Shown here one piece after another: positions 11,838 to 64,000 of a DNA stretch of 64,000 nucleotides (the stretch's first letter is position 1; every line of letters starts with the position of its first letter). The DNA is taken from NCBI GenBank assembly GCA_012295275.1, contig CM022674.1, positions 15,810,001 to 15,874,000 of the forward strand. The letters run 5' to 3'. The stretch comes from Chrysomallon squamiferum (taxonomy: Eukaryota; Animalia; Mollusca). The position numbers were made by a program, and so were the translations under genes. A model generated the notes under the pieces. The model ran no database searches and was not told the origin of the DNA. It saw only the letters and a program-made list of their open reading frames with translations.

Positions 11838-12486
11838 TTTCTATTCGATTGGCCAATGGCGGAGGAATTGCAACACGAGGCAGACTTGAAATAGAAAACA
11901 ACGGGACATGGGGAACTGTCTGTGCTAGAGAATTTGACGACAGAGTTGCTGCTGTTATCTGTTACATGCTGGGTTTTAGTAGGTAAATAAATATTTTCCT
12001 ATAATCTATTTATTTATATCTAGCAACGTTATACCTTAATTTTAATATACTTTTCTTTTTTAAGCATTTTCTTAACTAAAATGCTTATTATACGGTCACT
12101 AAAATTCGAATTATATGAGATAATATTATTGTGTTTTTTTGTCTTATTTTTTGTTCTGTTTTTACTGTTTTGACAGCATTAAATTATTATTGAGTATTAT
12201 ACAATAATACAAATAATAATTTAGGAAAATGTTTAACCCTAAAATTAGTGTACGCTGTATTAATAAATTAGTGATGAAAAAATACGGATTCAAGAAGAAT
12301 TGAATTGTGAAATATAAGTATTAATACATTATTTGTAAAACGTATAACCTAAAAGTTACAGAAAATGACCCGACTATAAATTATTACTTTCATTTCTTCG
12401 TCACATTCTTTTACATTTTTGTTTTACTTTTTACACGATAATCCATCAGCAACATGAGGAATGAATCTTATTATTCTATATATTAT

Positions 12487-12544
<58 letters not shown>

Positions 12545-12767
12545 GCTACTACTACTATTATTATTAGTCTTATTATTAAAATTATTTTCAGTTTCGAAGC
12601 AACATTATATCAAGCATCTGAGTTCGGACAAGGCAGTGGACCTATTTGGCTTGATGGACTTGACTGTAAGGGAGATGAAGAAAGTGTAGAGGATTGTTCC
12701 TACTCTACTTGGGGTGAAAACAACTGTAGTCATAAGCAAGACGTGGGAATCAGCTGTTTGAATCGCT
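11838..12767 (+). CDS. SRCR domain 3 (group A, 6 Cys), exons 11838-11982 and 12592-12767
   Basis: IRLANGGGIATRGRLEIENNGTWGTVCAREFDDRVAAVICYMLGFS / FEATLYQASEFGQGSGPIWLDGLDCKGDEESVEDCSYSTWGENNCSHKQDVGISC. Splice sites intact. Confidence 0.92.
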
Positions 12768-14040
12768 GTAAGTAGAGACATAAAAGTTAGTAAACTTAAT
12801 AATAACAAGACATTTAGTGAACAGACTAAGAGTGACCAATCTAGGAGATGTAAGAAAAAAATAATAAAATAAAAATGAAAATCTGAAGCTTTATGTTAAT
12901 CAGACTGTTGTGTCTGTTATTTTAATTGATGTGTTATCCGTGTGTGATGAGTTTCTTTTTCATATCAGAATAAGACAATATGAAGAGTTTGACTGTTTTA
13001 CTAATACATGTACATACAAAGGTAATAGTGCAGGTCCGATTTGAAAGTTTTCCTTATTGATTCTTAAAGCAGTGATAAACCATTTTATTATTATTATTAT
13101 TATGATTATTATTATTATTCATTTATTTATTTTTTTATTTATATTTTTATGTTTTATTAATTTTTGTTCTTCCCATACAACAGTGTTCTTTATTTAATAG
13201 TAACATTTGCTACCAAAAGATATCCGTTTACTATTTCTACGTGTCGATAATGTTTACTAGAGGATCAGTCTGTACCAGACGAAGTAGCCCGCTAAAAGTC
13301 GAATACCACCTACTTCATGATCTGGTAACAAACGTAAGTAAAACCCGGGTATACTTCAGTGTATCTTATTTAACAGTGAGAGAATAATTGTATCTGCCCA
13401 ACACAAAAAGCACACATTAACTTGCTATACAGGTAACGCCAGTATCGTTTCAGTACCATTACATGCTCATTGTTATAGATAGAAAACGAAAAAAGCTTTA
13501 TAAAGTTATAACATAAAATAAGAAAAAAAAGCTGCAACATAATTGACGTTAATCTACAATGGTTGTATATATTGAACCGCAAAGTGAGAAACACACTATT
13601 TTCACCTGCCAAGATGACAAAATATTTAAGGTTGGCATCAGTCCGTGTTTCACAAGTATAGCTATTATTATCTGTTTAGCACGGACGAACAGAACAAACA
13701 TCTTAACGTATTTAATATATGTGTGTCTTTACTTTTGTTAACTATTTTCGCGCGATATATAATAAAACATTTGTATTTGTCGTCAGTCCCTGTTTAGGAT
13801 ACACGAACAATCGCTATATTTTCAGTATGTTCGGTATCTGAGTGTGCATCCTTTTAACTGTGAAACTGTGATACCTGAAAATTATGATACAATTTGCACA
13901 GTTGGTTTTAGTTAGCCGACCGGTTACAAAATCCTTGTATTATCGTTTTTATGCGATAAACAAAGGATGTAACTAATTTTTTTTATTTATTTATTTATTT
14001 ATTTATTTTTCTGTTGATGTGTCTCAGTTTGAAGTTTTTT

Positions 14041-15991: not shown

Positions 15992-17500
15992 GTAAATAAA
16001 TATTTTACTACATTTTTCTTCTTATTATTTTTGTCTAGCAGTAGAATTTTATATGCTTAATATATACTTCTTTTTTAACCATTTTCATTACTTAAACGAT
16101 TATAATACATTCATGTAAAATTCGAATTATATGAAATAATATTATTGTGGTTTCCTGTTTAAGTTCCATGTGATACTGGCAATTACATTGCTGCACATTA
16201 TGTTATTGTTGTATATACATCTCACACCATTAAGTTATTATTCGTTGTTGTACAATAATACAAATTTCAACTTAGGAAAATGCGTTAACTCTACAATTAG
16301 TGTACATTCTATTAATACGTTTGTGATGAAAAAGTACAGATTCGAAAAGAAGTGAATTATGAATTATAAGTATTTATGAATTATTTTTTAAAACGTATCA
16401 AGTAATATTTATAGAAACATCTGAGTTAGAAACATCTTAGAATTCTTTTCATTATATTTGCACTTGTGTTTGCGTGTATCCATTTGTATATAGTTGTACA
16501 TATTTATAAATTTAGTTAAAAAACTGAGTAAAGTTTAAATAACCTGTATATTGCTGTGGTTGTATTAATTTACAATACAATGACAAAATATTTAATCTGT
16601 AAAGTAGATGATACCAGGCTTTGATGAAAACATGTAATTTACACGTAAATTAAATAACAACGCACTGAGCTGTCTCTGCTTAGGAAACAACTGCGAGAAG
16701 AAGAAAACTCAAAATTCTGAGATGTTTAACTGAATACATGCTGGTTATATTTGATAATTTATGTCTAACAACAGACCATGTTCCTTCAAAGTTGTTAAAT
16801 TTGTTTCTTACCTGTCAGCTGTAATTAATTATATTCCTCTTTGGATAACAAAATGACTACATAAATTAACAACAGGAAGATGGTAAAACAATAGGTGGAT
16901 CCCACAGTCTGTCTGCTGTCAGTTCAAATATTCAAAACTAACCAGTTTATATTAAAATTTGAAGAATAAATTATGAAGCTGTGCAGTTTTATATCTTATA
17001 ACAAATTTTAATGTTTCTATTTATTTCTTTTAAGACTGTTTTAGTTCATGCAGTCAAAGGTTCTAATATTTTCGGTTGTCCAGATCATCTGATGTGTGTA
17101 TATATAGTAAATGAAAAGAAATATTTAAAACCAAGAAAAACAAAAAGAAACATTTGTGTAATAATTATTATAGTAGCAATATAGAACAGTGCTGTAACAT
17201 TTATAGAGTACAGGTTTCAAAACTTTGATATATAGGGAAAGTCTATTTACTAGTTTGAGATATCTATCTGTCGGCCTCTGTGTCTACCTATTTATTTTTT
17301 GATCAGTTTGTCTATCTGTCTCTACATCTACATATCTGTCTGTGCAGATCATGACAAGAATTTACCACTGAGTGTGTGGGTAAATGTAGGTGCAGATAGA
17401 TTATTAAACTTGTAAACATATGTTTGTTTTTAAAGAAACATTTTAAAACATTTTTGTCCACAGATTTTTCACTTCTACAGATGAACTCATTCAGTAAAGC

Positions 17501-19228
17501 ATGCAACTGCAGACATGCCAGTCTTGTTATCATGGCAACAGGGTTTTCTGCCTCCTTTTCATTTTTGTCTTTCTCCCTGTTGTGATATGCACCCAGTCAC
17601 TGACATTGAGTGGAGAGAAGAAAATTGATCATTTTGACCACAGGGGAAACCACGAAGACACACCGTGCTGGACGGTGAAAATCCACAAGAGAGTTCAACA
17701 TTCCATACCACTTCAGGGGAGACAACTTGTCATTTCTGCTGCAGACATCAGACTTGACTCTGTGGGACAGATATCAAATTTCCTAAACCATTTCACTTTC
17801 TGTTTCTGGCCAGAGACTTTAGAACTGAGTGACACAAGTAAACTGAACTTTGAAGATTTACACAAAGTACACCAGTTTATCTTGAAGAAAACACGTCACA
17901 GATTCAACACTTTGAGGAAAACAGTAGAGAGCTGGTTGCAGGGAGACAACTCTGTTGAGTGGTTTAGTCCCAATGTTGTGAGAGTCAGACAGAAAAGTTC
18001 TCTTCATTTTGAAGATCCGTTCTTCACACGACAATGGCACTTGGTAAGTAAATAATCTGCATAATTTATCTCCAGTTGTAGTGAAAGTAGATCTTAGCTC
18101 CATTGTGTAGCATCCACTCAAACAGTGACATCTGATCTGATCTGGATTCACTAACCAGTTTCTTCTTAACACACTTTGATTAACATTTTAATTTTACATA
18201 TTTTCATGCATATGAAATACCAGACTGTGACAATGAGAGATAATTTATTGTGTTAATTTAAATTACAAGTATTTTATCTAAAATTACTAAAATCATTTAT
18301 ATTTTGTTTTATTTTATTAATATATGTATTTATTTGTTTATTTATTATGTTTATTATATTTATTTATTTATTTGTTGATTTTTAATTTAATTTATTTATT
18401 TATTAAACAGAGCAATAAGTTGTCTGGAATGGATATCAATGTCACTGGTGTCTGGGAACGAAACATAACAGGAATTGGGGTCACTGTTGCTGTTGTTGAT
18501 GATGGGAAGTAAATGTGTGATATAACTAAACACTGTTCTTGCAGTTAATAATAGTGAATAAATACTTTTGTTTTTGTTGATCAATAAATATTACTGTTGA
18601 TTTTTAAAGTTAACATATTTCAAAACTCAAATTTAGTTATCTGTATTTTGGTTTCAGTTAGATTTGTTCAAGTTCTTTGGGTACAATTTTTGTATTCTGT
18701 ATAGATATAGCTGTATTGAAATTTTCTCTCTCTCTTTCTGTTCTGTTTATATATTTGTAATCTATCTCTTTTTTCTCTCTGTGTAACCTATGTCATTCTC
18801 AAAAATCTGTCTCCTTTTTGTCTCTCTGACTCTCTCTCTCTCTCTCTCTCTTGGTATCTGAAAGGGCAATACCATTTTTGTCTAATAAGAAAAATAAACC
18901 TCATTTCAAATGTTGGATATGAAAGTGAAAAAAAGAGAAAAACAAAAAAGGAAATTATATTCATCCAAACAGAAATGAAATGAAATGGGAAATAATAATA
19001 AAAAAAAAAAAAAAAAAAAAAAATAAAATTATAATATTCTTATATGTGTAGTTATTGTTATTTTGCTTTTACTCTAACTGTACTATTTATGGAATTTTTC
19101 ATATTACTGATATTTTTTATTTCCAGGCTTGTAGTGGACAAACACTGATATTCATGACATCTACAACTACCACGGCAGCTGGGATCTCAATGATGATGAT
19201 TCTGATCCTATGCCTAGTGACCACAAAG
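17501..19228 (+). pseudogene. PCSK7: PCSK7-like proprotein convertase 5' fragment, copy 1 (coding exons 17501-18043, 18411-18504, 19127-19228)
   Basis: Signal peptide, prodomain, then SLHFEDPFFTRQWHL / [27 protein letters not shown] / GSWDLNDDDSDPMP. These parallel PC7 (SVHFNDPKYPQQWHL...[27 protein letters not shown]...GSYDLNSNDPDPMP). Exon-2 donor is GT>GG, there is a TAG at 19132, and no catalytic His/Ser exons follow. Confidence 0.9.
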
Positions 19229-19772
19229 GTGAGATGAGTGGCTGTTAATTTTTTTTATTAACTCTGTGTACCTTGAGTTAAACCATTTTGATTTGGGTAG
19301 TACTTGTACTTGTTCCATTATCATCACTATTGTCATAATCATCTCATTATCATAAACAATATTACATTATTCATACTTTGTTTTGATATTTTCATCCTAA
19401 CTGTTTGCAGTTTATTGTAAGACCTGTGTAATTATATTATTTCTCAAATTATTGTGATGTTTCAACCACACAACTGATTCAGTTGATGGAAATATACTTG
19501 AGTTTTGTGTTTGTGAGCGTGGTAAGTTTGTTTGTTTACGTGCGTGTGGGAATAGTGATGAACTAACAGTTACAGTGCAGCAAGTATAGTACATCATAGA
19601 ACGTCAGCTGGTTTTATTTGTCTGACTAAAGTACTTTTTGTGCGGGATACTTCTTTATTAGTATTTCTTTTTTTAAACTACCGGAGCTTTTCATCGAGTA
19701 TCCTGGTTCAATTCAAAAGTTTGCTGGGCAAAATGTTAGAAATGTTTCAATACAAACTTTGTTTAATTTCAG

Positions 19773-20090
19773 TACCGCCGTCATCAGTAGATACCTCTTA
19801 CTCTACACTGACTGTGTCTGACTGTGACTCAATTATTGTGAAGAAGATTATTGTCTCCCGTTCTAGAATCACCTATTTCCGATGGGTTAACAGAAACATG
19901 AAGGTTATGAAAAGTGTAATTAACGAAAGTGACGATTCTGTTAAAATCTACAACAAAACTGTCAACGCCAGTGGCTACCTGATTTCAATGGACATTGGTC
20001 AGTTTTCAGACAGTGAACGAGGGTTGTACAATCTAACAGTCTGTAACAAATTTGGATGTGACAATTTCTACACTTACCTAAAGTCATCAG
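19773..20090 (+). CDS. Ig-like domain exon (106 codons, phase 1/1)
   Basis: Open exon with a C-strand Trp (YFRWV) and F-strand motif DSERGLYNLTVCNKFG. AG/GT intact. Confidence 0.75.
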
Positions 20091-20606
20091 GTTCGTGTTA
20101 TTGTAGAAGTGCAATGTTTATACAATTATTCTCCATATTAAATTTCAGATTAATATTATCCTGTTCATCCTGTTAAAATATTTCACCAACTTTTAGTAAA
20201 CAAATACTTTATCATTAAACTGAAACGAAAGATTTCACGAGCTTATATTAAACAAATACTTTACCTTTAAAAAGAAATGAAAGATTTCATTAGTAATCAT
20301 TTCACTTTATTTAAAGAGAATTACAACCTACATTTTTTGTTACATCACTTTCGTATTTCCCAAAGAATGACCTGTATACTGAAATACGTGAAAGATTATT
20401 TAAGATATCCCAGTCTACATCGATGCAAACAATATTTTCATTTTGCATTTAATTGTAATAATTTATTTATTCATTTATTGTCCTATTCTCTTCGTATGTA
20501 TATATATGTACGTGTGTATATGTGTCTGTATGTGTGTATGTAGATATGTATGTTTCTTTGTATATTCAGTTTACGTATTTAAATTAATGAATATTTATCT
20601 TTCTAG

Positions 20607-20738
20607 AAGAACATACCGAGTCTAAATTTGACAAGATGTCTGTCTACATTGTTACTGCAGTATTGGGTATCATCATCCTGATCATCCTCGTTGTAGTCTG
20701 TGTAATGAGGCAGAGGAGGAAATCAGAGGATAACGAAA
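20607..20738 (+). CDS. Transmembrane exon of the receptor, copy A (donor mutated)
   Basis: EEHTESKFDKMSVYIVTAVLGIIILIILVVVCVM-RQRRK: a hydrophobic helix followed by a basic stop-transfer cluster. Confidence 0.85.
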
Positions 20739-20893
20739 CTAAGAAACAATGACGATATCTAGTAATGAAAATAATTAGCAATATTTACTTATTTTATAAT
20801 TCTATTTAACAACTATGTTTATTATTTTTGCATTTCTTTCTTACATTCTATTTTGTCTTCAGTTTTTCAATAACGTTTGTTTTTGTGATACAG

Positions 20894-21824
<931 letters not shown>

Positions 21825-22527
21825 GTAAAGTGAAAATTTTATATTAATAACTTGTTGGTCATCCTAGCGACATTAGCAAATTTAGAAATAGTTTTATCAT
21901 TACAGCAACGTTAGTAGTAGTTGTAGTAATAATATAAGTTATAGTTGTGTAGTAGTAGTAGCAGCACCAATAGAATAAGTAGAAATGTTGATGGTAATGA
22001 TCGTAGTCGTAGCAGTGGAAGTTCTACCAGCAATAATAATGATAACATTCACAGCAGCAGCATAATTGTCTTGGTGACAGAGGCAGTTTTGGTTGCTGTG
22101 GAAATTATACAACTAATATGGTAATAGTTGTAGTTGTACGTTTTGTAATTCTACAAGTGATTGTTGTAGTGGTAGTTGTACTTTTTGCAGTTCTACAAGT
22201 GATTGCTGTAGTGGTAGTCGTAGGAGTAATTTGTTTTATGCACGTTCGTGGAATGCTCACTGTCTTCCATCTGACCTAATATCTTTAATATTTCCACAAA
22301 ATACTGTATTTATTTATTTATTTATTTATTTATTTGATTTGATTTGATTTGATTGTTTATTTCAGGTTAAAATCAATATGAAAAGAAAAGTAGATGATTG
22401 TAATATTATTATATGTTAACATGTCTGTTTCAAGAAGGATCTTCACGTGGACATTCTCTGACATTTTTTATCTTTATGTCCATGGAATCAACGTGAACGT
22501 CAAAATAACAACAACAACAACAACAAC

Positions 22528-22598
<71 letters not shown>

Positions 22599-23424
22599 TA
22601 CATAAATAAATAAATAAATAAAAACAACAAAGGAAACAACATAGAGGTATGTTTGCTCGTGGGATCGTAGCACTTAGATGTGTGTTACAGGCGAGACGTA
22701 GGAATTACTTTCTGTTTCTGAAGGATGGCGCGGTTCAGAGAAATTAATCTGGCACAGGTTTAAATAGAGAGAAAAACAAATAGTTTAACTTTATTTATTT
22801 ATTTGTTGTGATGAATTGTTATACCTGAATATTTTACGAAGAGTTAATGAACACATTATAGTCTTGTGTTTTAACATAATTTAACACTAGATATGTTAAA
22901 AAGTTAACTGGCATGTATAACACACCATTCTCAGTGTGTTCAGATTTTCTCGTTTTTTTAGGTTTTTCTGACAATGAATTCAAGAACTATAAACAATGTA
23001 GTTCTTAGCTGTGGATTTTAGTTTTCTAAAATATATTTCCCATCATACCTCTGTAAAAAGAATTGACACAAGATAAATAACATCAACAAGAGAACAGTTT
23101 TAGTTCATTATTTATATACAGAGTATGTCTCGTAATAATATGAAAAACTAGAAGCGGAACTAAATTATTTACGTTTTTGTGGAAACGTCAGTTAAAACAA
23201 TTAAAGTCGGGAGAATCAAGTTATTACGTTAATATGTGAGTGTGTGCGTGTGTGTGTGTGTGTGCCTGTGTGTGTGCGTGTGTGTGTTCAACAGTTTACT
23301 GATTACACTGCCTATTGACGGTAAAAAAACAAAAATAAAAGTATCTTAACAGACGCCGTCCAATTTATGCTGCTATAGGCAACATCCCTCTTGTCGCTTC
23401 CCGAATCAGAGCATGAATTTCAAA

Positions 23425-24041
23425 TTCGCCTCAACCTCGTCTCAACTCTCGCCTCAACTCTCGTCTTTCCCTCGTCTCAACTCTCGTCTCAACTCTCGCC
23501 TCAACTCTCGTTTCAACTATCGCCTCAACCCTCGTCTCAACCCCCGCCTCAACCCTCGTCTCAACCTCGTCTCAACCCTCGTCTCAACCTCGTCTCAACT
23601 CTCGTCTCAACTCTCGCCTCAGCCTCGTCTCAACCCTCGTCTCAACCTTGTCTCAACCCTCGTCTCAACCCTCGTCTCAACCCTCGTCTCAACCCTCGTC
23701 TCAACCTTCTCAACCCTCGTCTCAACCCTCGTCTCAACCCTCGCCTCAACCTCGCCTCAACCTTCGTCTCAACCTCGTCTCAACCTTCTCAACCCTCGTC
23801 TCAACTCTCGTATCAACTCTCGTTTCAACTCTCGCCTCAACCCTCGTATCAACCCTCGCCTCAACCCTCGTCTCAGCCCTCGCCTCAACCTTCGTCTCAA
23901 CCTCGTCTCAACCTTTTCAACCCTCGTCTCAACTCTCGTATCAACTCTCGTTTCAACTCTCGCCTCAACCCTCGTATCAACCCTCGCCTCAACCTCGTCT
24001 GAACTCTCGTCTCAACCCTCTTCGCAACTCTCGTCTCAACC
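23425..24041. repeat. 12-bp C-rich minisatellite (CTCGTCTCAACC), about 50 variant units
   Basis: Visible directly; produces stop-free ORFs in all three + frames. Confidence 0.95.
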
Positions 24042-25379
24042 GAGGAATCAAAGACAAAAACAAAGACACGCGTGTTGACAAATTTCAAAGCTGTCTTAGT
24101 TTATTAGTCAAAACTAGCTGTATCCTAGCCTGTAATTAACGTAACTACGAAATTTAAAAATAATAATAATAATAATAAAACAAATAAAAAATGCCTTTAA
24201 AGGTTCGACATGGCATTTTTTTCCAGTAAAAGGGCATTAATGATGGTCAAACAGAACTTTAATTATCTGCATATATCGACATTTTAATACAGTTTATTTA
24301 CAGATTACAATCATTAATACATATTTATTTACTACCTGTCGTTGTTTTATCTTTTGTTTATCTCATAAAACTACATAATCTTTGGCTTTCTCTCGGTCTC
24401 TTTGCTTTTTCTGTAGACACTTTTGTTCTCTAAATATACTTTCCCGAAGACAAATAGTAATGTCGACTAACAATGGACAGCCTTTCTCTCAGATACATGA
24501 AAAGGAGAACTTAGGCTAAATAAAAGTCATTATAAGAGACTGATGTTCATGCACTGATTGTGTTCTATCACTTTCTAAACGTCAAGAATTGTATTACATT
24601 CACACGAAATATCTATTCTCAGCACGACACTAAAAAATACTCTCTCTGTGTTTGTCTTTATAACAAAGCAAATCTCATATTGATTATACTAGTAAAGCGA
24701 ATACTGTCCTCCATTGTCAGTAAAACTAGAACCACAGTTGGTAGAAAAAACCTTAATGACGTACTTTCTTCTGAATTTATTATTGATATATCTTAATAAC
24801 CTGTTTTTAAATGTTTATAATCTCAAATAATCTTCATTGTTTAATGTGTCAAATCCTCACAGTCAAGCAGTCTGTTTTCTTATGTTTATTCAATTGAGAT
24901 GACAACTTGTCTTGTCCTTCACCTGTCAGACTTCAAATAAAGTCAAGAGAATGAGTTATGCCGAGGCATTGACAGAATAAAAAAAGTGTCAAGAGGTTTG
25001 AAGCGGATGCAGTCAAAGAAAACGCTGAGGTGCAGACTTGAAAGATATTACAAATATACATGACTAATTAGTATTAAACAATATAAAAATACATCATGAA
25101 TATGGTTTACTATTTCCAGCACTACTATTAGTTTCTGTTCCACTATTATTAGCCTACTATATCCAGTACTACTATTATTACTGACCATACCATTTCCAGT
25201 ACTACTACTATTACCAACACTACTATTTCCAGTGCTACTACTATTATTATTATTATTAGCCATACTATTTCCAGTACTACTATTATTGCGTTTATCTAAC
25301 TTATCTTGATGTTCCCCTTAATTTACCTTAATTACCTGATGACCGACATCACCTGGAACGAGAAAGGAAAGGTAAATTA

Positions 25380-25460
25380 TCCGAGCGGAGCAAGGATTTG
25401 AACTCCAAGCAGCGAGCGTAGCTAGCGTGAACGCTAACCACGACACCATCCGATCTCGGA
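25380..25460 (-). ncRNA. tRNA-like / Pol III type-2 promoter segment, left arm
   Basis: Closing stem TCCGAG...CTCGGA, A-box-like TGGTGTCGTGGTTAGC, B box GTTCAAATCC. No clean anticodon arm. Confidence 0.6.
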
Positions 25461-25872
25461 CGACCACCAACGAAAAGAACTTCTAGTCAATCGTGCGATC
25501 GATGTTGTGCAATCGATTTGGAGTTACCTCCCAATATGGCGATTATCTGTAGAAGCCGCCATTTTCGAAATTTGCATAATATCCTGCAATACTATAAGAA
25601 TTATATAACTTGCGGGGATAATGACATCATGTTTATTTTTAGAAACTATGTAATGCAATTCTTTTAATTTTATATAAATGTTTATTTTATTAAATATTTT
25701 ATTTTATATGCTAAATATTAACGAATGTGTGGATTTATATTTAAAATAGTCAGATAAAATAAAATGAAAATGACGGCTTCTGCAGATAATCGCCATGTTG
25801 GGAGATAACCCAAAACCGACTGCGCAACATCGATCGCAGGATTGACTAGAAGTTATTTTCGTATGTTGTTCG

Positions 25873-25952
25873 TCCGAGATCGAATGATGTCGTGGCTAGA
25901 ATTCACTCTCGCTACGCTCGCTGCTTGGAGTTCGAATCCTCGCACGCTCGGA
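25873..25952 (+). ncRNA. tRNA-like / Pol III type-2 promoter segment, right arm
   Basis: Closing stem TCCGAG...CTCGGA, A-box-like TGATGTCGTGGCTAG, canonical B box GTTCGAATCC at 25930-25939. Confidence 0.6.
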
Positions 25953-26649
25953 TAATTTACATTTGATTTCTCTTTCCAGGTGATGTCGGTGATGTCGGTA
26001 ATTAAGGTAAGTTAGGTAAACGTCAACAGTAGTAGAGTTAGAAATAATACTAGTACTGGAAATAGTAGGGCTAGTAATAATTGTAGTATCGGTACTGGAA
26101 CAAGTATTGGAAGTAATAACAGTAGAACTGGAAATAGTAGGCCTAGTAATAATAGTAGTAGTACTGGAAATGGTACCGCTAGTAATAATAGTAGTAGTAC
26201 TGGAAATGGTACCGCTAGTAATAATAGTAGTACTACTGGAAATAGCAGGGCTAGTAATAATAGTAGTATTGGTGTTGGAACAAATATTGGAAGTAATAAC
26301 AGTAGAACTAGTAACAATAGTAATGGAAATAATAGGGCTAGTAATAATAGTAATAAAAATAGTAGGACTAGTAAAAACAGTAGTAATACTAGAAATGGTA
26401 GAGGTAATAGTATTGGAAATAGTAGGGATAGTAATAATAGTTGTGAAAATATTAGCGCTGGTAATAATGGTGGTGCTGAAAAGCTCTCTGCTATTAGACA
26501 CGTGAACTAAGTAATAATACATTTTGTTTTATTTTATTTTAAATTTTATTAAAGCAAAAGCAGCAAATACAAAACAGTCGTGGGAAATTGGGAAATCACA
26601 TGACAATGTTTATAATAATACAAAACCAGATACATTTTGTGTTAGAATC

Positions 26650-45449: not shown

Positions 45450-45649
45450 NNNNNNNNNNNNNNNNNNNNNNNNNNNNNNNNNNNNNNNNNNNNNNNNNNN
45501 NNNNNNNNNNNNNNNNNNNNNNNNNNNNNNNNNNNNNNNNNNNNNNNNNNNNNNNNNNNNNNNNNNNNNNNNNNNNNNNNNNNNNNNNNNNNNNNNNNNN
45601 NNNNNNNNNNNNNNNNNNNNNNNNNNNNNNNNNNNNNNNNNNNNNNNNN
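45450..45649. other. Assembly gap (200 N)
   Basis: Run of N of round length, typical of a scaffold join. Confidence 0.99.
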
Positions 45650-57973: not shown

Positions 57974-58978
57974 AACCAGTACGGTTAGTTGATGGAAGAG
58001 GAATACCAACACAAGGTCGAGTTGAGATTCAAGTAAACGGGACGTGGGGAACAATCTGTGATGATGGTTTTGATGAGAAAGATGCTTCTGTTTTATGTCA
58101 CATGTTAGGATTTTGTCGGTAATTTGTTTATTATGCTTTTATTTATTTATTTTCGTGATTTAATGAAATAAAATAAATAACTCATTTATAGACGTAGTAG
58201 ATTCAAATTTGTTCACAACCACAACATAATTAATTGTTCTTCAAGTACATTACACGCGGAATTCCTCTCGATGCGATTTTTAAAATTTCAAATATTTTTG
58301 TTAGAAATAATAATAATTGCAGTAGTTGTAGTATTAGTATTAGTATTATTATTAGTAGTAGTAGTAGTAAATGTAAATAATGATGTTGATTATATTTACA
58401 CTATATTAATGGTATTATTGTATCAAACATTGTCCATTAAAATTGTTTCGAAACAATTTAGAAAAAAAGTATATTCTTCCGAAAACCTTAGAACTAAATG
58501 CCCGTCTGTTGAACACGTTTCCAAAGAATGTTCCATAATTGAAATAAAATTAATAAGTATTCTACAGACGTAGTAGATCCAAATTTACTCACAAACACAA
58601 GATAATTAAGTGTTGTTCAACTGCATTACATGCGAAATTCTTCTCTATGGTATTTTTAATATTTCAAATATGTTTGTAAGAAATAATGATAAATGTAGTA
58701 ACTGACTTCTCAAAACTTTGAGACTAAAATGAGATCTGTTGAAGATGTTTAGGAAACCTTGTTGTATAACACTCATTTCACTATACATATTATTCATTTC
58801 TCTTGCAGCTTTAATGCAACATCATATCAAAGTGCTCACTTTGGAGAGGGAACTGGACAAATATGGCTTGATGATCTGAGATGTGATGGAGATGAAGACA
58901 GTGTTGAAAAGTGTTCATTTCCTGGCTGGGGAAAACACAACTGTGGTCACACAGAGGATGCTGGTATCAGCTGTCAAT
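57974..58978 (+). CDS. SRCR domain 1, intact in copy B (exons 57974-58118 and 58809-58978)
   Basis: [47 protein letters not shown] / ...[45 protein letters not shown]. Confidence 0.93.
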
Positions 58979-59580
58979 GTCAGTTTACATTTGACTTTTT
59001 ATTTCATTGTGTATCAATAACACAATGTTTTAACTTGTTGGCATCAAAATTATAATTCGTGTGTTTAATGGTGTCGTACTGAAGTGTGTATCTGTCATTA
59101 TTTCCCTTTAATAATAACGAAACAATACAAAATAATATCAGGATGGAGTACGATATTCAACTAAAAAGCTAGGCTTAAAATAACCTGAATTCAAATGAGA
59201 TATATTAATGATCCATTTATTCGTATTTATTAGTTACTTTACTTGCTTGTTTGTTTCCTTGACTGTTGTTTGTTTATTCCTTCCCTTATTTGACTGTTTG
59301 AGTATTTGTAATTCATGTACGACTTATAATAGGCATCAAAGCTAAACATATACCACTACGAGAGTTGCAACAGAGGAAACTCATTAGTGAAACTGTACAG
59401 ATTATTCTTGTTGACTTGCATACAAATAGGAAAATAAAATCGGAGGGGAATGAAGCAGCTTGTACGAAGTTTTCAGAAGAAATATAGTTACAAGAGTATT
59501 AATCCATCTTACTAAATCGATTTTCTCAAGTAGAAGTAAACATGGAGAGTTACTGAAAATATACATCAGAAAGATCAAAA

Positions 59581-60892: not shown

Positions 60893-61650
60893 GTCTGTCT
60901 GAAACAGAAACATGAAGGTTATGAAAAGTGTAATTAACGAAAGTGACGTTTCTGTTAAAGTCTACAACAAAACTGTCAACGTCAGTGGCTACCTGATTTC
61001 ACTGGACATTGGTCAGTTTTCAGACAGTGAACGAGGGTTGTACAATCTAACAGTCTGTAACAAATTTGGATGTGACAATTTCTACACTTACCTAAAGTCA
61101 TCAGGTTCGTGTTATTGTAGAAGTGCAATGTTTATACAATTATTCTCCATATTAAATTTCGGATTAATATTATCCTGTTCATCCTGTTAAAATACTTCAC
61201 CAACTTTTAGTAAACAAATACTTTATCATTAAACTGAAACGAAAGATTTCACGAGCTTATAGTAAACAAATACTTTACCTTTGAACAGAAACGAAAGATT
61301 TCATTAGTAATCATTTCACTTTATTTAAAGAGAATTACAACCTGAATTTTTTGTTACATCACTTTCGTATTTCCCAAAGAATGACCTGTATACTGAAATA
61401 CGTGAAAGATTGTTTAAGATATCCCAGTCTACATCGATGCAAACAATATTTTCATTTTGAATTTAATTGTATTAATTTATTTATTCATTTATTTTCCTAT
61501 TCTCTTCGTATGTATGTATGTATATATAGGTACGTGTGTATATGTGTGTCTGCATGTGTGTATGTACGTAAATGTGCATGCATGTAGATATGTATGTTTC
61601 TTTGTATATTCAGTTTACGTATTTAAATTAATGCATATTTATCTTTCTAG

Positions 61651-62790
<1,140 letters not shown>

Positions 62791-64000
62791 GTAAAGTGAA
62801 AAATTTATATTAATAACTTGTTGGTCATCCTAGCGACATTAGCAAATTTAGAAATAGCTTTATCATTACAGCAACGTTAGTAGTAGTTGTAGTAATAATA
62901 TAAGTTACAGTTATGTAGTAGTAGTAGGAGCACCGATAGAATAAGTAGAAATGTTGATGGTAATGATAGTAGTCGTAACCTCGTGTTGACAAATCTCAAA
63001 GCTTTCTTAGTTTATCAGTCAAAACTAGCTGTATCCTAGCCTGTAATTAACGTAACTACGAAATTTAAAAATAATAATAATAATAAAAAAAACAAATAAA
63101 AAATACCTTTAAAGGTTCGACATGGCATTTTTTCCAGTAAAAGCGCATTAATGATGGTCAAACAGAACTTTTATTATCTGCATATATCGAAATTTAAATA
63201 CAGTTTATTTACTGATTACAATCATTAATACATTTTATTTACTATCTGTCGTTGTTTTATCTTTTGTTTATCTCATAAAACTACATAATCTTTGGCTTTA
63301 TCTCTGTCTCTTTGCTTTTTCTGTAGACACTTTTATTCTCTAAATATACTTTCCCGAAGACAACTGGTAATGTCGACTAACAATGGACAGCCTTTCTCTG
63401 AGATACATGAAAAGGAAAAATAAAATCATTATAAGAGACTGATGTTCATGCACTGATTGTGTTCTATCATTTTCTAAACGTCAAGAATTGTATTACATTC
63501 ACACGAAATATCTATTCTCAGCACGACACTAAAAAAATACTCTCTGTGTGTTTGTCTTTATAACAAAGCAATTTGATTATACTAGTAAAGCGAAAACTGT
63601 CCTCCATTGTCAGTAAAACTAGAACCTCAGTTGGTAGAAACAACCTTACTCACGGACTTTCTTCTGAATTTATTATTGATCTATCTTAATAACCTGTTTT
63701 TAAACGTTTATAATCTAATATAATCTTCATTGTTTAATGTGTCAAATCCTCACAGTCAAGCCGTCTGTTTTCTTACGTTTATTAAATTGAGATGTCAACT
63801 TGTCTTGTCCTTCACCTGTCAGACTTCAAATAAAGTCAAGAGGATGTGTTATGCCGAGGCATTGACAGAATAAAAAAGTGTCAAGAGGTTTGAAGAGGAT
63901 GCAATCAAAGAAAACCTTGAGGTGCAGACTTGAAAGATATTACAGATATATGACTAATTAGTATTAAACAATATTAAATACATCATGAATATGGGAGCCA

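What the first reader, a model, noticed from the sequence alone, without database searches (positions are those of the whole stretch)
25260..26070. Divergent head-to-head pair of tRNA-like Pol III cassettes with YY1-like sites, an octamer and downstream micro-exon signals
Seen: each arm reads outward as AAAATG(G/A)CGGC and CGCCAT(A/G)TT (YY1-like), then an 80-nt segment closed by a TCCGAG/CTCGGA stem with A- and B-box-like motifs. A pyrimidine tract with TTCCAG, about 17-20 nt, and several GTAA donor-like sites follow. The spacer contains ATTTGCAT at 25570. The arms differ by roughly 20% by eye, yet both keep the closing stem, the B box and the acceptor. The tRNA-like part begins about 105 bp inside the repeat, not at the 5' end as in a normal SINE. 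Inference: a bidirectional promoter module or a VA-RNA-like small RNA gene of the adjacent element.
Basis: partly seen in the sequence, partly recalled or inferred. Interest (0 to 1): 0.75.

Follow-up and report, generated by a model that had tools for sequence, protein, structure and literature searches.

The report
Twin promoter arms beside parvovirus-like relic
Two back-to-back 250-base repeats, each holding a promoter-like part and a tRNA-like part, recur as one unit in many copies in this animal genome beside a broken gene with a parvovirus-like helicase motif, so they are likely the decayed control region of a virus-like element rather than working small-RNA genes, and one RNA contig suggests the host edits their transcript as double-stranded RNA.

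Summary
The inverted pair is real. The arms (25566-25321 on -, 25766-26012 on +) are 86.6% identical. Arm-spacer-arm recurs as one multi-copy unit in public contigs. YY1-like cores and B boxes exceed chance; the octamer does not.

The small-RNA-gene reading is weak. There is no tRNA or Rfam match and no four-T terminator for 291 (left) or 570 (right) bases. The cassette is no better conserved than the rest of the arm, and family variants break the apical stem.

New results: (1) a broken minus-strand gene (27830-26550) ends tail-to-tail with the right arm and carries a parvovirus-type SF3 helicase Walker B stretch (window-wide E 0.006; nuclease domain by eye only). (2) One RNA contig spans the whole left cassette unspliced, with 7 A-to-G changes on the outward strand; 6 are absent from three DNA runs. 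This looks like ADAR hyper-editing.

Best reading (0.45): a decayed bidirectional control region of a parvovirus-like endogenous element, now giving edited double-stranded RNA. Main rival (0.3): an inverted duplicate of a SINE-like unit, spread with the neighbouring SRCR gene array.

The parts
25461..25566 (-). Left arm, upstream 106 nt: two YY1-like cores in opposite orientation, a 12-codon uORF and a donor-like GAG|GTAAC
   Evidence: promoter role inferred
25380..25460 (-). Left tRNA-like cassette: closing stem, degenerate A box, 11-bp apical hairpin, B box at 25403-25394; folds at z -4.95
   Evidence: no ARAGORN or Rfam hit
25321..25379 (-). Left pyrimidine tract, TTCCAG acceptor-like site, short exon-like stretch and GTAA donor-like sites
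   Evidence: sequence; unspliced in the one RNA contig that spans it
25106..25290 (-). Left AGT/AAT minisatellite tail
25567..25765 (.). AT-rich spacer (about 19% GC) with ATTTGCAT at 25570; bridged to both arms by high-depth contigs
   Evidence: (X2 records 6 and 7)
25766..25872 (+). Right arm, upstream 107 nt: one YY1-like core (reverse), 12-codon uORF; the donor-like GT is absent
25873..25952 (+). Right tRNA-like cassette, B box at 25930-25939; apical stem partly broken, fold z -1.27
25953..26012 (+). Right pyrimidine tract, CAG at 25977-25979, short exon-like stretch (9 nt shorter in another copy) and GTAA sites
26043..26468 (+). Right minisatellite tail (periods are multiples of 3), followed by ATTAAA at 26548
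26550..27830 (-). Broken NS1-like gene: open 5' part 27830-27293, nuclease-like motifs near 27640 and 27508 (by eye), SF3 Walker B/B' stretch near 26825-26710; many stops and frame changes; AATAAA signals at 26528 and 26545
24071..25105 (.). Unique 1-kb left flank that travels with the pair; 93% paralog at 62982-64000; no protein identified

Best explanation
The two arms are an old inverted duplication that recurs as one unit, and they are likely the decayed two-way control region of a parvovirus-like endogenous element whose broken NS1-like gene lies tail-to-tail with the right arm. Shown: the inverted pair; arm-spacer-arm joined in high-depth contigs; a helicase-like stretch next door; convergent polyadenylation-like signals at 26528-26553; one RNA contig with clustered A-to-G changes. 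Inferred: each arm once worked as a Pol II promoter (YY1-like sites, short uORF, 5' intron) with a Pol III-type A/B-box cassette inside it. The layout would arise if an ambisense linear genome integrated through a circle or concatemer (terminal repeat joined to terminal repeat), or if a circular genome with divergent promoters was opened elsewhere. The genes then decayed into minisatellite tails, and the unit was amplified, at least partly by duplication with the neighbouring SRCR gene array. Today long transcripts through an arm would pair with the opposite arm or with antisense RNA and be A-to-I edited by host ADAR. The 80-nt cassette is probably no longer a selected small RNA.
For: Pair as a unit: X2 contigs 25482-25620 (depth 192) and 25591-25850 (depth 124) bridge arm-spacer-arm, against listed contigs of depth 7 and 19 in that run; X5 25708-25849 has depth 1275. 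Helicase: the same 37-38 residue stretch is the best hit in all six frames of the window for three profiles: 17 densovirus-type helicases, E 0.022; 63 parvovirus-type, E 0.17; all 80 together, E 0.0056, with the best reversed-sequence control at E 3.7. A frameshift-aware score was reached by 1 of 300 local shuffles. Linkage: X4 record 12 (26333-26632) and the diverged X6 record 23 (26457-26659, 18 other letters) cross the tail/NS1-like junction. RNA: X9 record 26 (25328-25464) has 7 T>C among 8 listed differences; 6 of the 7 have zero depth in DNA runs X4, X5 and X2. The chance under the DNA change spectrum is about 1e-6 to 1e-7. Seven of 23 A's on the outward strand are changed, 0 of 6 after a G (Fisher p 0.12). 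The pair folds back with 232-233 long-range pairs, and 5 of the 7 sites are paired in that fold.
Against: No database search found a relative of the NS1-like protein. The nuclease domain was not detected by either N-terminal profile, and the single-sequence model is uninformative (pLDDT 39). The helicase family was chosen after seeing the motif. No capsid-like gene was found. In 16 of 18 densovirus-type loci the terminal repeats are 94-100% identical and hold no strict B box, whereas these arms are 87% identical. The NS1-like part is several-fold shallower than the pair, so most copies may lack it. The editing evidence is one contig of depth 2.8, with no DNA from the same sample.
Confidence: 0.45

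Rival explanations
1. A tRNA-headed SINE-like unit with its 5' flank was duplicated in inverted orientation once. The pair was then spread passively by segmental duplication of the SRCR gene array or inside another mobile element, and the NS1-like relic is an unrelated neighbour.
For: Each arm reads tRNA-like head, short body, simple-repeat tail, with no nearby terminator, which is SINE anatomy (established knowledge). Identity is uniform along the arm, 85-88% in four segments, as for neutral decay. The left flank's paralog (93%) is about as diverged as the adjacent gene paralogs (91.5-91.7%). Depth suggests tens of copies, not thousands (rough inference).
Against: No pool of free heads was seen: the tRNA-like part is 1.11, 1.38 and 1.27 times as deep as the upstream part in three runs, and loose ends do not pile up at the cassette's 5' edge. 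The shared upstream part is GC- and CpG-rich with YY1-like cores, unlike random flank. A diverged copy keeps the junction to the NS1-like gene.
Confidence: 0.3
2. A foldback-type non-autonomous DNA transposon: long inverted repeats with an outer tandem-repeat domain and an inner unique domain, moved by a transposase in trans.
For: Both arms have inner unique and outer tandem domains, the foldback layout (recalled). The unit is multi-copy.
Against: The outer ends diverge from each other. The best flanking direct repeat is an AT-rich 7-mer found over many trial ends. The 1-kb left flank is about as deep as the spacer, so the unit does not stop at the left tail.
Confidence: 0.12
3. A pair of working Pol III small-RNA genes (VA-, BocaSR- or vault-like, about 80 nt) kept by selection.
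For: B box and closing stem are intact in both arms, with no variant at 35% or more there in DNA runs. The left cassette folds far better than shuffles (z -4.95). Between the window's two arms the apical stem shows one double and one single pair-keeping change.
Against: First T4 lies 570 nt (right) and 291 nt (left) past the stem. The double change is private to this copy: at 25907 all covering contigs carry another letter, and variants at 25423 (40-69% in X4 and X5) and 25433 (35-50%) break pairs. Two of 11 apical pairs are broken in the right arm. The cassette is no more conserved than its flanks. No Rfam hit at E 10. The RNA contig extends beyond both ends of the cassette.
Confidence: 0.1

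Closest known systems
Human bocavirus 1 BocaSR and adenovirus VA RNA (PMC8242256, passages read)
   Same: Internal A- and B-box Pol III cassette closed by a terminal stem, in a parvovirus-like context
   Different: BocaSR is one discrete 140-nt RNA in a non-coding region of the viral genome. Here there are two 80-nt cassettes in inverted, promoter-like arms, with no nearby terminator and no discrete RNA shown.
Ambisense densoviruses (loci L009-L026) and endogenous parvovirus-related sequences of invertebrates (PMC5013282, passages read)
   Same: SF3 helicase stretch; genes on opposite strands that converge; inverted repeats at the 5' ends of both units; degraded endogenous copies are common in invertebrates
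   Different: The repeats here face outward from a central spacer, are 87% identical and carry B boxes (none strict in the repeats of 16 loci). No capsid gene was found.
tRNA-derived SINEs (SINE2)
   Same: tRNA-like head, short body, simple-repeat tail, distant terminator
   Different: 106 shared bases precede the head; no free heads were seen; the copies occur as a fixed head-to-head pair.
Helenus TRIMs (PMC10886601, abstract and passages read)
   Same: A non-functional tRNA-like sequence with boxes A and B embedded inside a terminal repeat, not at an element's 5' end
   Different: Helenus has two LTRs around a primer-binding site and polypurine tract, with 4-5 bp target duplications. Here the repeats are inverted.
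ADAR hyper-editing of repeat-derived dsRNA in animals (PMC5625713, PMC9989829; search listing only)
   Same: Clustered A-to-G changes on one strand of a repeat that can form long double-stranded RNA
   Different: Nothing unusual in kind; here it rests on one contig.

Membership tests
tRNA gene | Cloverleaf found by ARAGORN or Rfam | tested here: not met
   0 genes; no Rfam tRNA hit at E 10; only at 85% of ARAGORN's threshold does a mis-registered call appear on the left arm
tRNA-derived SINE | Internal A and B boxes | tested here: met
   B box in both arms; A box degenerate, judged by eye
tRNA-derived SINE | Element begins at the tRNA-like head; free dispersed copies | tested here: not met
   106 shared upstream bases; depth ratio 1.1-1.4; no pile of loose ends at the head
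tRNA-derived SINE | Target-site duplication and LINE-derived tail | not testable with these tools
   no genome held; no repeat library
VA RNA / BocaSR-type Pol III RNA | Terminal stem with internal boxes | tested here: met
VA RNA / BocaSR-type Pol III RNA | T-run terminator right after the stem | tested here: not met
   first T4 is 291 and 570 nt away; only T3 runs follow the stem
VA RNA / BocaSR-type Pol III RNA | Abundant discrete small RNA | not testable with these tools
   only contigs of one RNA run were available; contigs cannot show RNA ends
Parvovirus-derived endogenous element | SF3 helicase motifs in NS1 | tested here: met
   Walker B/B' stretch, window-wide E 0.0056, control 3.7; moderate, family chosen after seeing the motif; Walker A not recovered as a hit
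Parvovirus-derived endogenous element | N-terminal HUH endonuclease domain | tested here: inconclusive
   motif order fits by eye (recalled); profiles and fold searches gave nothing
Parvovirus-derived endogenous element | Capsid gene | tested here: inconclusive
   no match to ORFs of 18 densovirus-type loci in 22000-29100; decay could hide it
Ambisense densovirus | Near-identical terminal repeats | tested here: not met
   87% here against 94-100% in 16 of 18 loci; could be drift after integration
Helenus TRIM | Two LTRs (direct repeats) with PBS and PPT between them | tested here: not met
   the repeats are inverted
Penelope-like pseudo-LTR pair | Hammerhead ribozyme in the repeat and an RT/GIY-YIG ORF nearby | tested here: not met
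   no hammerhead core with stem II in 22000-29200; no Rfam hammerhead; no Pfam RT in the 15 flanking frames scanned
Foldback transposon | Matching outer termini with target-site duplication | tested here: inconclusive
   only chance-level direct repeats; the element's true ends are not defined

The most novel reading that the evidence does not exclude
An undescribed lineage of invertebrate parvovirus-like elements carries, in both terminal repeats, a hybrid control unit: a YY1-type Pol II promoter whose first intron holds a Pol III small-RNA cassette, an invertebrate counterpart of VA RNA and BocaSR. Deleted copies of it have spread in this genome as a mobile unit, and their fold-back RNA is edited by ADAR.
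Probability: 0.2. Interest if true: 0.75.

Novelty: new variant of a known kind. Interest (0 to 1): 0.45.

Why it matters
PMC8242256 calls BocaSR the first Pol III RNA found in small DNA viruses and unique among parvoviruses. If the link to the NS1-like gene holds, this is a fossil showing such cassettes in the terminal control region of an invertebrate parvovirus-like element. It would also show an endogenous viral control region outliving its genes as a source of edited double-stranded RNA beside an immune-type (SRCR) gene array. If the link fails, it is an ordinary duplicated repeat with ordinary editing.

Tried and rejected
No whole genome is held, so copies could not be collected or aligned, and family variation comes only from laid contigs.

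Pattern scans for the arms found 0 matches in viral contigs and 0 in prokaryote genomes. The 8 matches in metagenomes were all limited to 20-33 bases in unrelated sequence. A 22-base resemblance to related marine phage loci is chance.

Rfam gave only E 1.9-9 noise. Protein searches of the neighbouring ORF were all blank. The fold was low-confidence, with no match at E 0.001 or Z 5. The full-length densovirus NS1 profile was not significant (best domain E 0.32).

RNA run X9 had no cover over 26570-27800; this is no proof of silence. An X9 contig joining 25355 to 25844 does not fall on the splice acceptor and was not seen in three DNA runs. It may be a template switch or a deletion copy.

In one search my brackets for the closing stem were out of register, so that helix's row is void; the other two helices are correct. 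I dropped a tRNA-Sec reading of the TTCA loop (no Rfam support) and a hammerhead reading of CTGATGA at 25337 (left arm only, no stem II).

Literature: searches found no paper describing Pol III or VA-like cassettes in densovirus terminal repeats. The Galleria densovirus paper (PMC228461), which I recall may discuss this, is not held. Searches found no description of this element. No supplements were read. Earlier-finding look-ups by sequence, place and one word set were empty.

Full report
Setting. The window is about 30% GC, rich in microsatellites and holds duplicated SRCR-domain genes, so it comes from an animal; the taxon is not known. No whole genome is held.

Observation. The two arms align over 247 bases at 86.6% identity, 25566-25321 on the minus strand with 25766-26012 on the plus strand. 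Both continue outward into AGT/AAT minisatellite tails. Identity is even: 87% upstream, 87.5% in the tRNA-like part, 85% in the pyrimidine tract and 85% in the exon-like part. The YY1-like core occurs 3 times in the window, all here (0.64 expected). The B box occurs 4 times, twice here (0.44 expected). The octamer is at chance level. The arms are about 50% GC with CpG o/e 1.5-1.6, and the spacer is 19% GC.

Is the cassette a known or working small RNA? ARAGORN and Rfam find nothing. The left cassette folds well (z -4.95) and the right does not (z -1.27). Between the window's two arms the 11-pair apical stem has 7 unchanged pairs, one one-sided change, one two-sided change and two broken pairs (the closing-stem row of that call is void through my bracket error). 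Contigs of other copies remove the apparent covariation. At 25907 all covering contigs differ from the window. Variants at 25423 and 25433, at 35-69% of depth in X4 and X5 and absent in X2, break pairs. No variant at 35% or more falls in the closing stem or B box in DNA runs, but an invariant 12-base stem is expected 18% of the time. The first four-T run is 570 bases past the right stem and 291 past the left. A selected, discrete 80-nt Pol III RNA is therefore unlikely, though Pol III read-through into the tail, as in SINEs, is possible (inference).

The pair is one repeated unit. Nine of 11 listed runs from three studies hold part of the stretch; I laid six different runs in two calls. In X2, contigs 25482-25620 (depth 192) and 25591-25850 (depth 124) overlap and join left arm, spacer and right arm, while other listed contigs have depth 7 and 19. 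The tool warns that depth is no copy number; tens of copies is my rough inference. Summed over both arms, the tRNA-like part is 1.11, 1.38 and 1.27 times as deep as the upstream part, so there is no large pool of free SINE heads. The 1-kb left flank is about as deep as the spacer and has a 93% paralog at the window's end, next to a 91.7% paralog of the host gene's 3' part. At least some copies thus arose by segmental duplication.

The neighbour. A minus-strand frame is open from 27830 to 27293 and then broken by stops and frame changes down to AATAAA signals at 26545 and 26528, which face an ATTAAA of the right arm's strand at 26548. All public protein searches were blank and the fold was uninformative. 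By eye the motif order resembled parvovirus NS1 (recalled), so I fetched 18 densovirus-type loci and 63 parvovirus-type loci and built profiles; one short densovirus frame was left out of the helicase profile. The same stretch near 26825-26710 was the best hit in all six frames of the window: E 0.022 (17 sequences), 0.17 (63) and 0.0056 (80), with the best reversed control at 3.7 for the combined profile. One of 300 local shuffles reached the frameshift-aware score. N-terminal profiles found nothing and no capsid-like match appeared. This is moderate evidence for an SF3 helicase relic and weak evidence for parvovirus specifically. Two contigs cross the junction between the right tail and this gene's 3' end, one of them a diverged copy. 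The gene region is several-fold shallower than the pair.

RNA. One metatranscriptome contig (X9 record 26, depth 2.8) covers 25328-25464 and runs 18 more bases upstream. Of its 9 differences 8 are listed; 7 are T>C, that is A>G on the left arm's outward strand. Six of these have zero depth in DNA runs X4, X5 and X2, and the seventh is a DNA variant at about 5%. The chance of such a skew under the DNA change spectrum is about 1e-6 or less. Seven of 23 A's are changed and none of the 6 that follow a G (p 0.12). The pair can fold back with over 230 long-range pairs, and 5 of the 7 sites are paired there. Several changed A's lie in the T-loop and beyond the closing stem, which the local fold leaves unpaired, so a long duplex explains them better. 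This fits ADAR hyper-editing (established knowledge; PMC5625713 and PMC9989829 seen in the search listing only). It is one low-depth contig without DNA of the same animal. It is longer than the cassette and unspliced at the acceptor.

Mechanism. The best reading (0.45) is a decayed two-way control region of a parvovirus-like endogenous element: a joined pair of terminal repeats, or the control region of an opened circle. The right unit converges on the NS1-like gene; the left unit would have fed the rest of the genome. Promoter activity, past Pol III function and the route of integration are inferred. Rivals are an inverted SINE-plus-flank duplicate carried by the gene array (0.3), a foldback transposon (0.12) and working Pol III genes (0.1). 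Earlier findings e1-8669850 and e1-9978287 prompted the Penelope test, which was negative, and parallel the passenger-SINE rival; they are not evidence.

Comparison. BocaSR is a 140-nt Pol III RNA with internal A and B boxes, described as unique among parvoviruses (PMC8242256, passages). Helenus elements carry non-functional tRNA-like sequence inside LTRs (PMC10886601, abstract and passages). Degraded parvovirus-related sequences are widespread in invertebrate genomes (PMC5013282, passages). Known densovirus-type terminal repeats are 94-100% identical and lack a strict B box (16 of 18 loci with repeats). The feature works like a mix of these but passes the membership test of none. Four searches found no report of Pol III cassettes in densovirus repeats; one relevant paper is not held.

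Verdict. A real, multi-copy, probably transcribed and edited structure. It is best filed as a new variant of a known kind, an endogenous virus-like or repeat control region. Interest 0.45; the bold reading has probability 0.2 and would merit 0.75.

Noticed in passing
window 12458-12775, 58753-59055, 19562-20950, 60903-62200: Duplicated + strand gene with SRCR exons (Pfam E 8e-13 and 9e-14), an Ig-like exon (by eye) and a transmembrane exon. Paralogous blocks are about 91.5% identical. This suggests a tandem immune-type receptor array.
   Followed up: partly
window 62982-64000: 93% paralog of the left flank. Its last six bases match an 8-letter insertion that contigs show at 25105, so a second copy of the pair probably follows just past the window's end.
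   Followed up: partly
window 25610-25618: Nearly all laid contigs differ from the window at 25612 and 25617, which gives a STAT-type TTCNNNGAA site in the spacer of other copies (motif recalled; such sites are common in the window).
   Followed up: no
window 25562-25524 (-) and 25770-25808 (+): Both arms open with a 12-codon uORF that stops at the same place. In the left arm, splicing from the donor-like site to the acceptor would give the same peptide and stop.
   Followed up: partly
window 16419-18437 and 32901-34938: Inverted 93% duplicate pair of a gene fragment with a weak peptidase S8 pro-domain match (E 0.014), so inverted segmental duplications occur elsewhere in this window.
   Followed up: no
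window 24190-24219: A 10-bp perfect hairpin stem; seven X6 contigs leave the window's sequence at 24219. This is a possible left boundary of the unit.
   Followed up: no
window 23426-24041, 27816-28400, 29950-32300: Arrays with 12-bp, 27/54-bp and about 40-bp units. The 27/54-bp array sits where the start of the NS1-like gene would be.
   Followed up: no
window 45450-45649: 200-base assembly gap.
   Followed up: no
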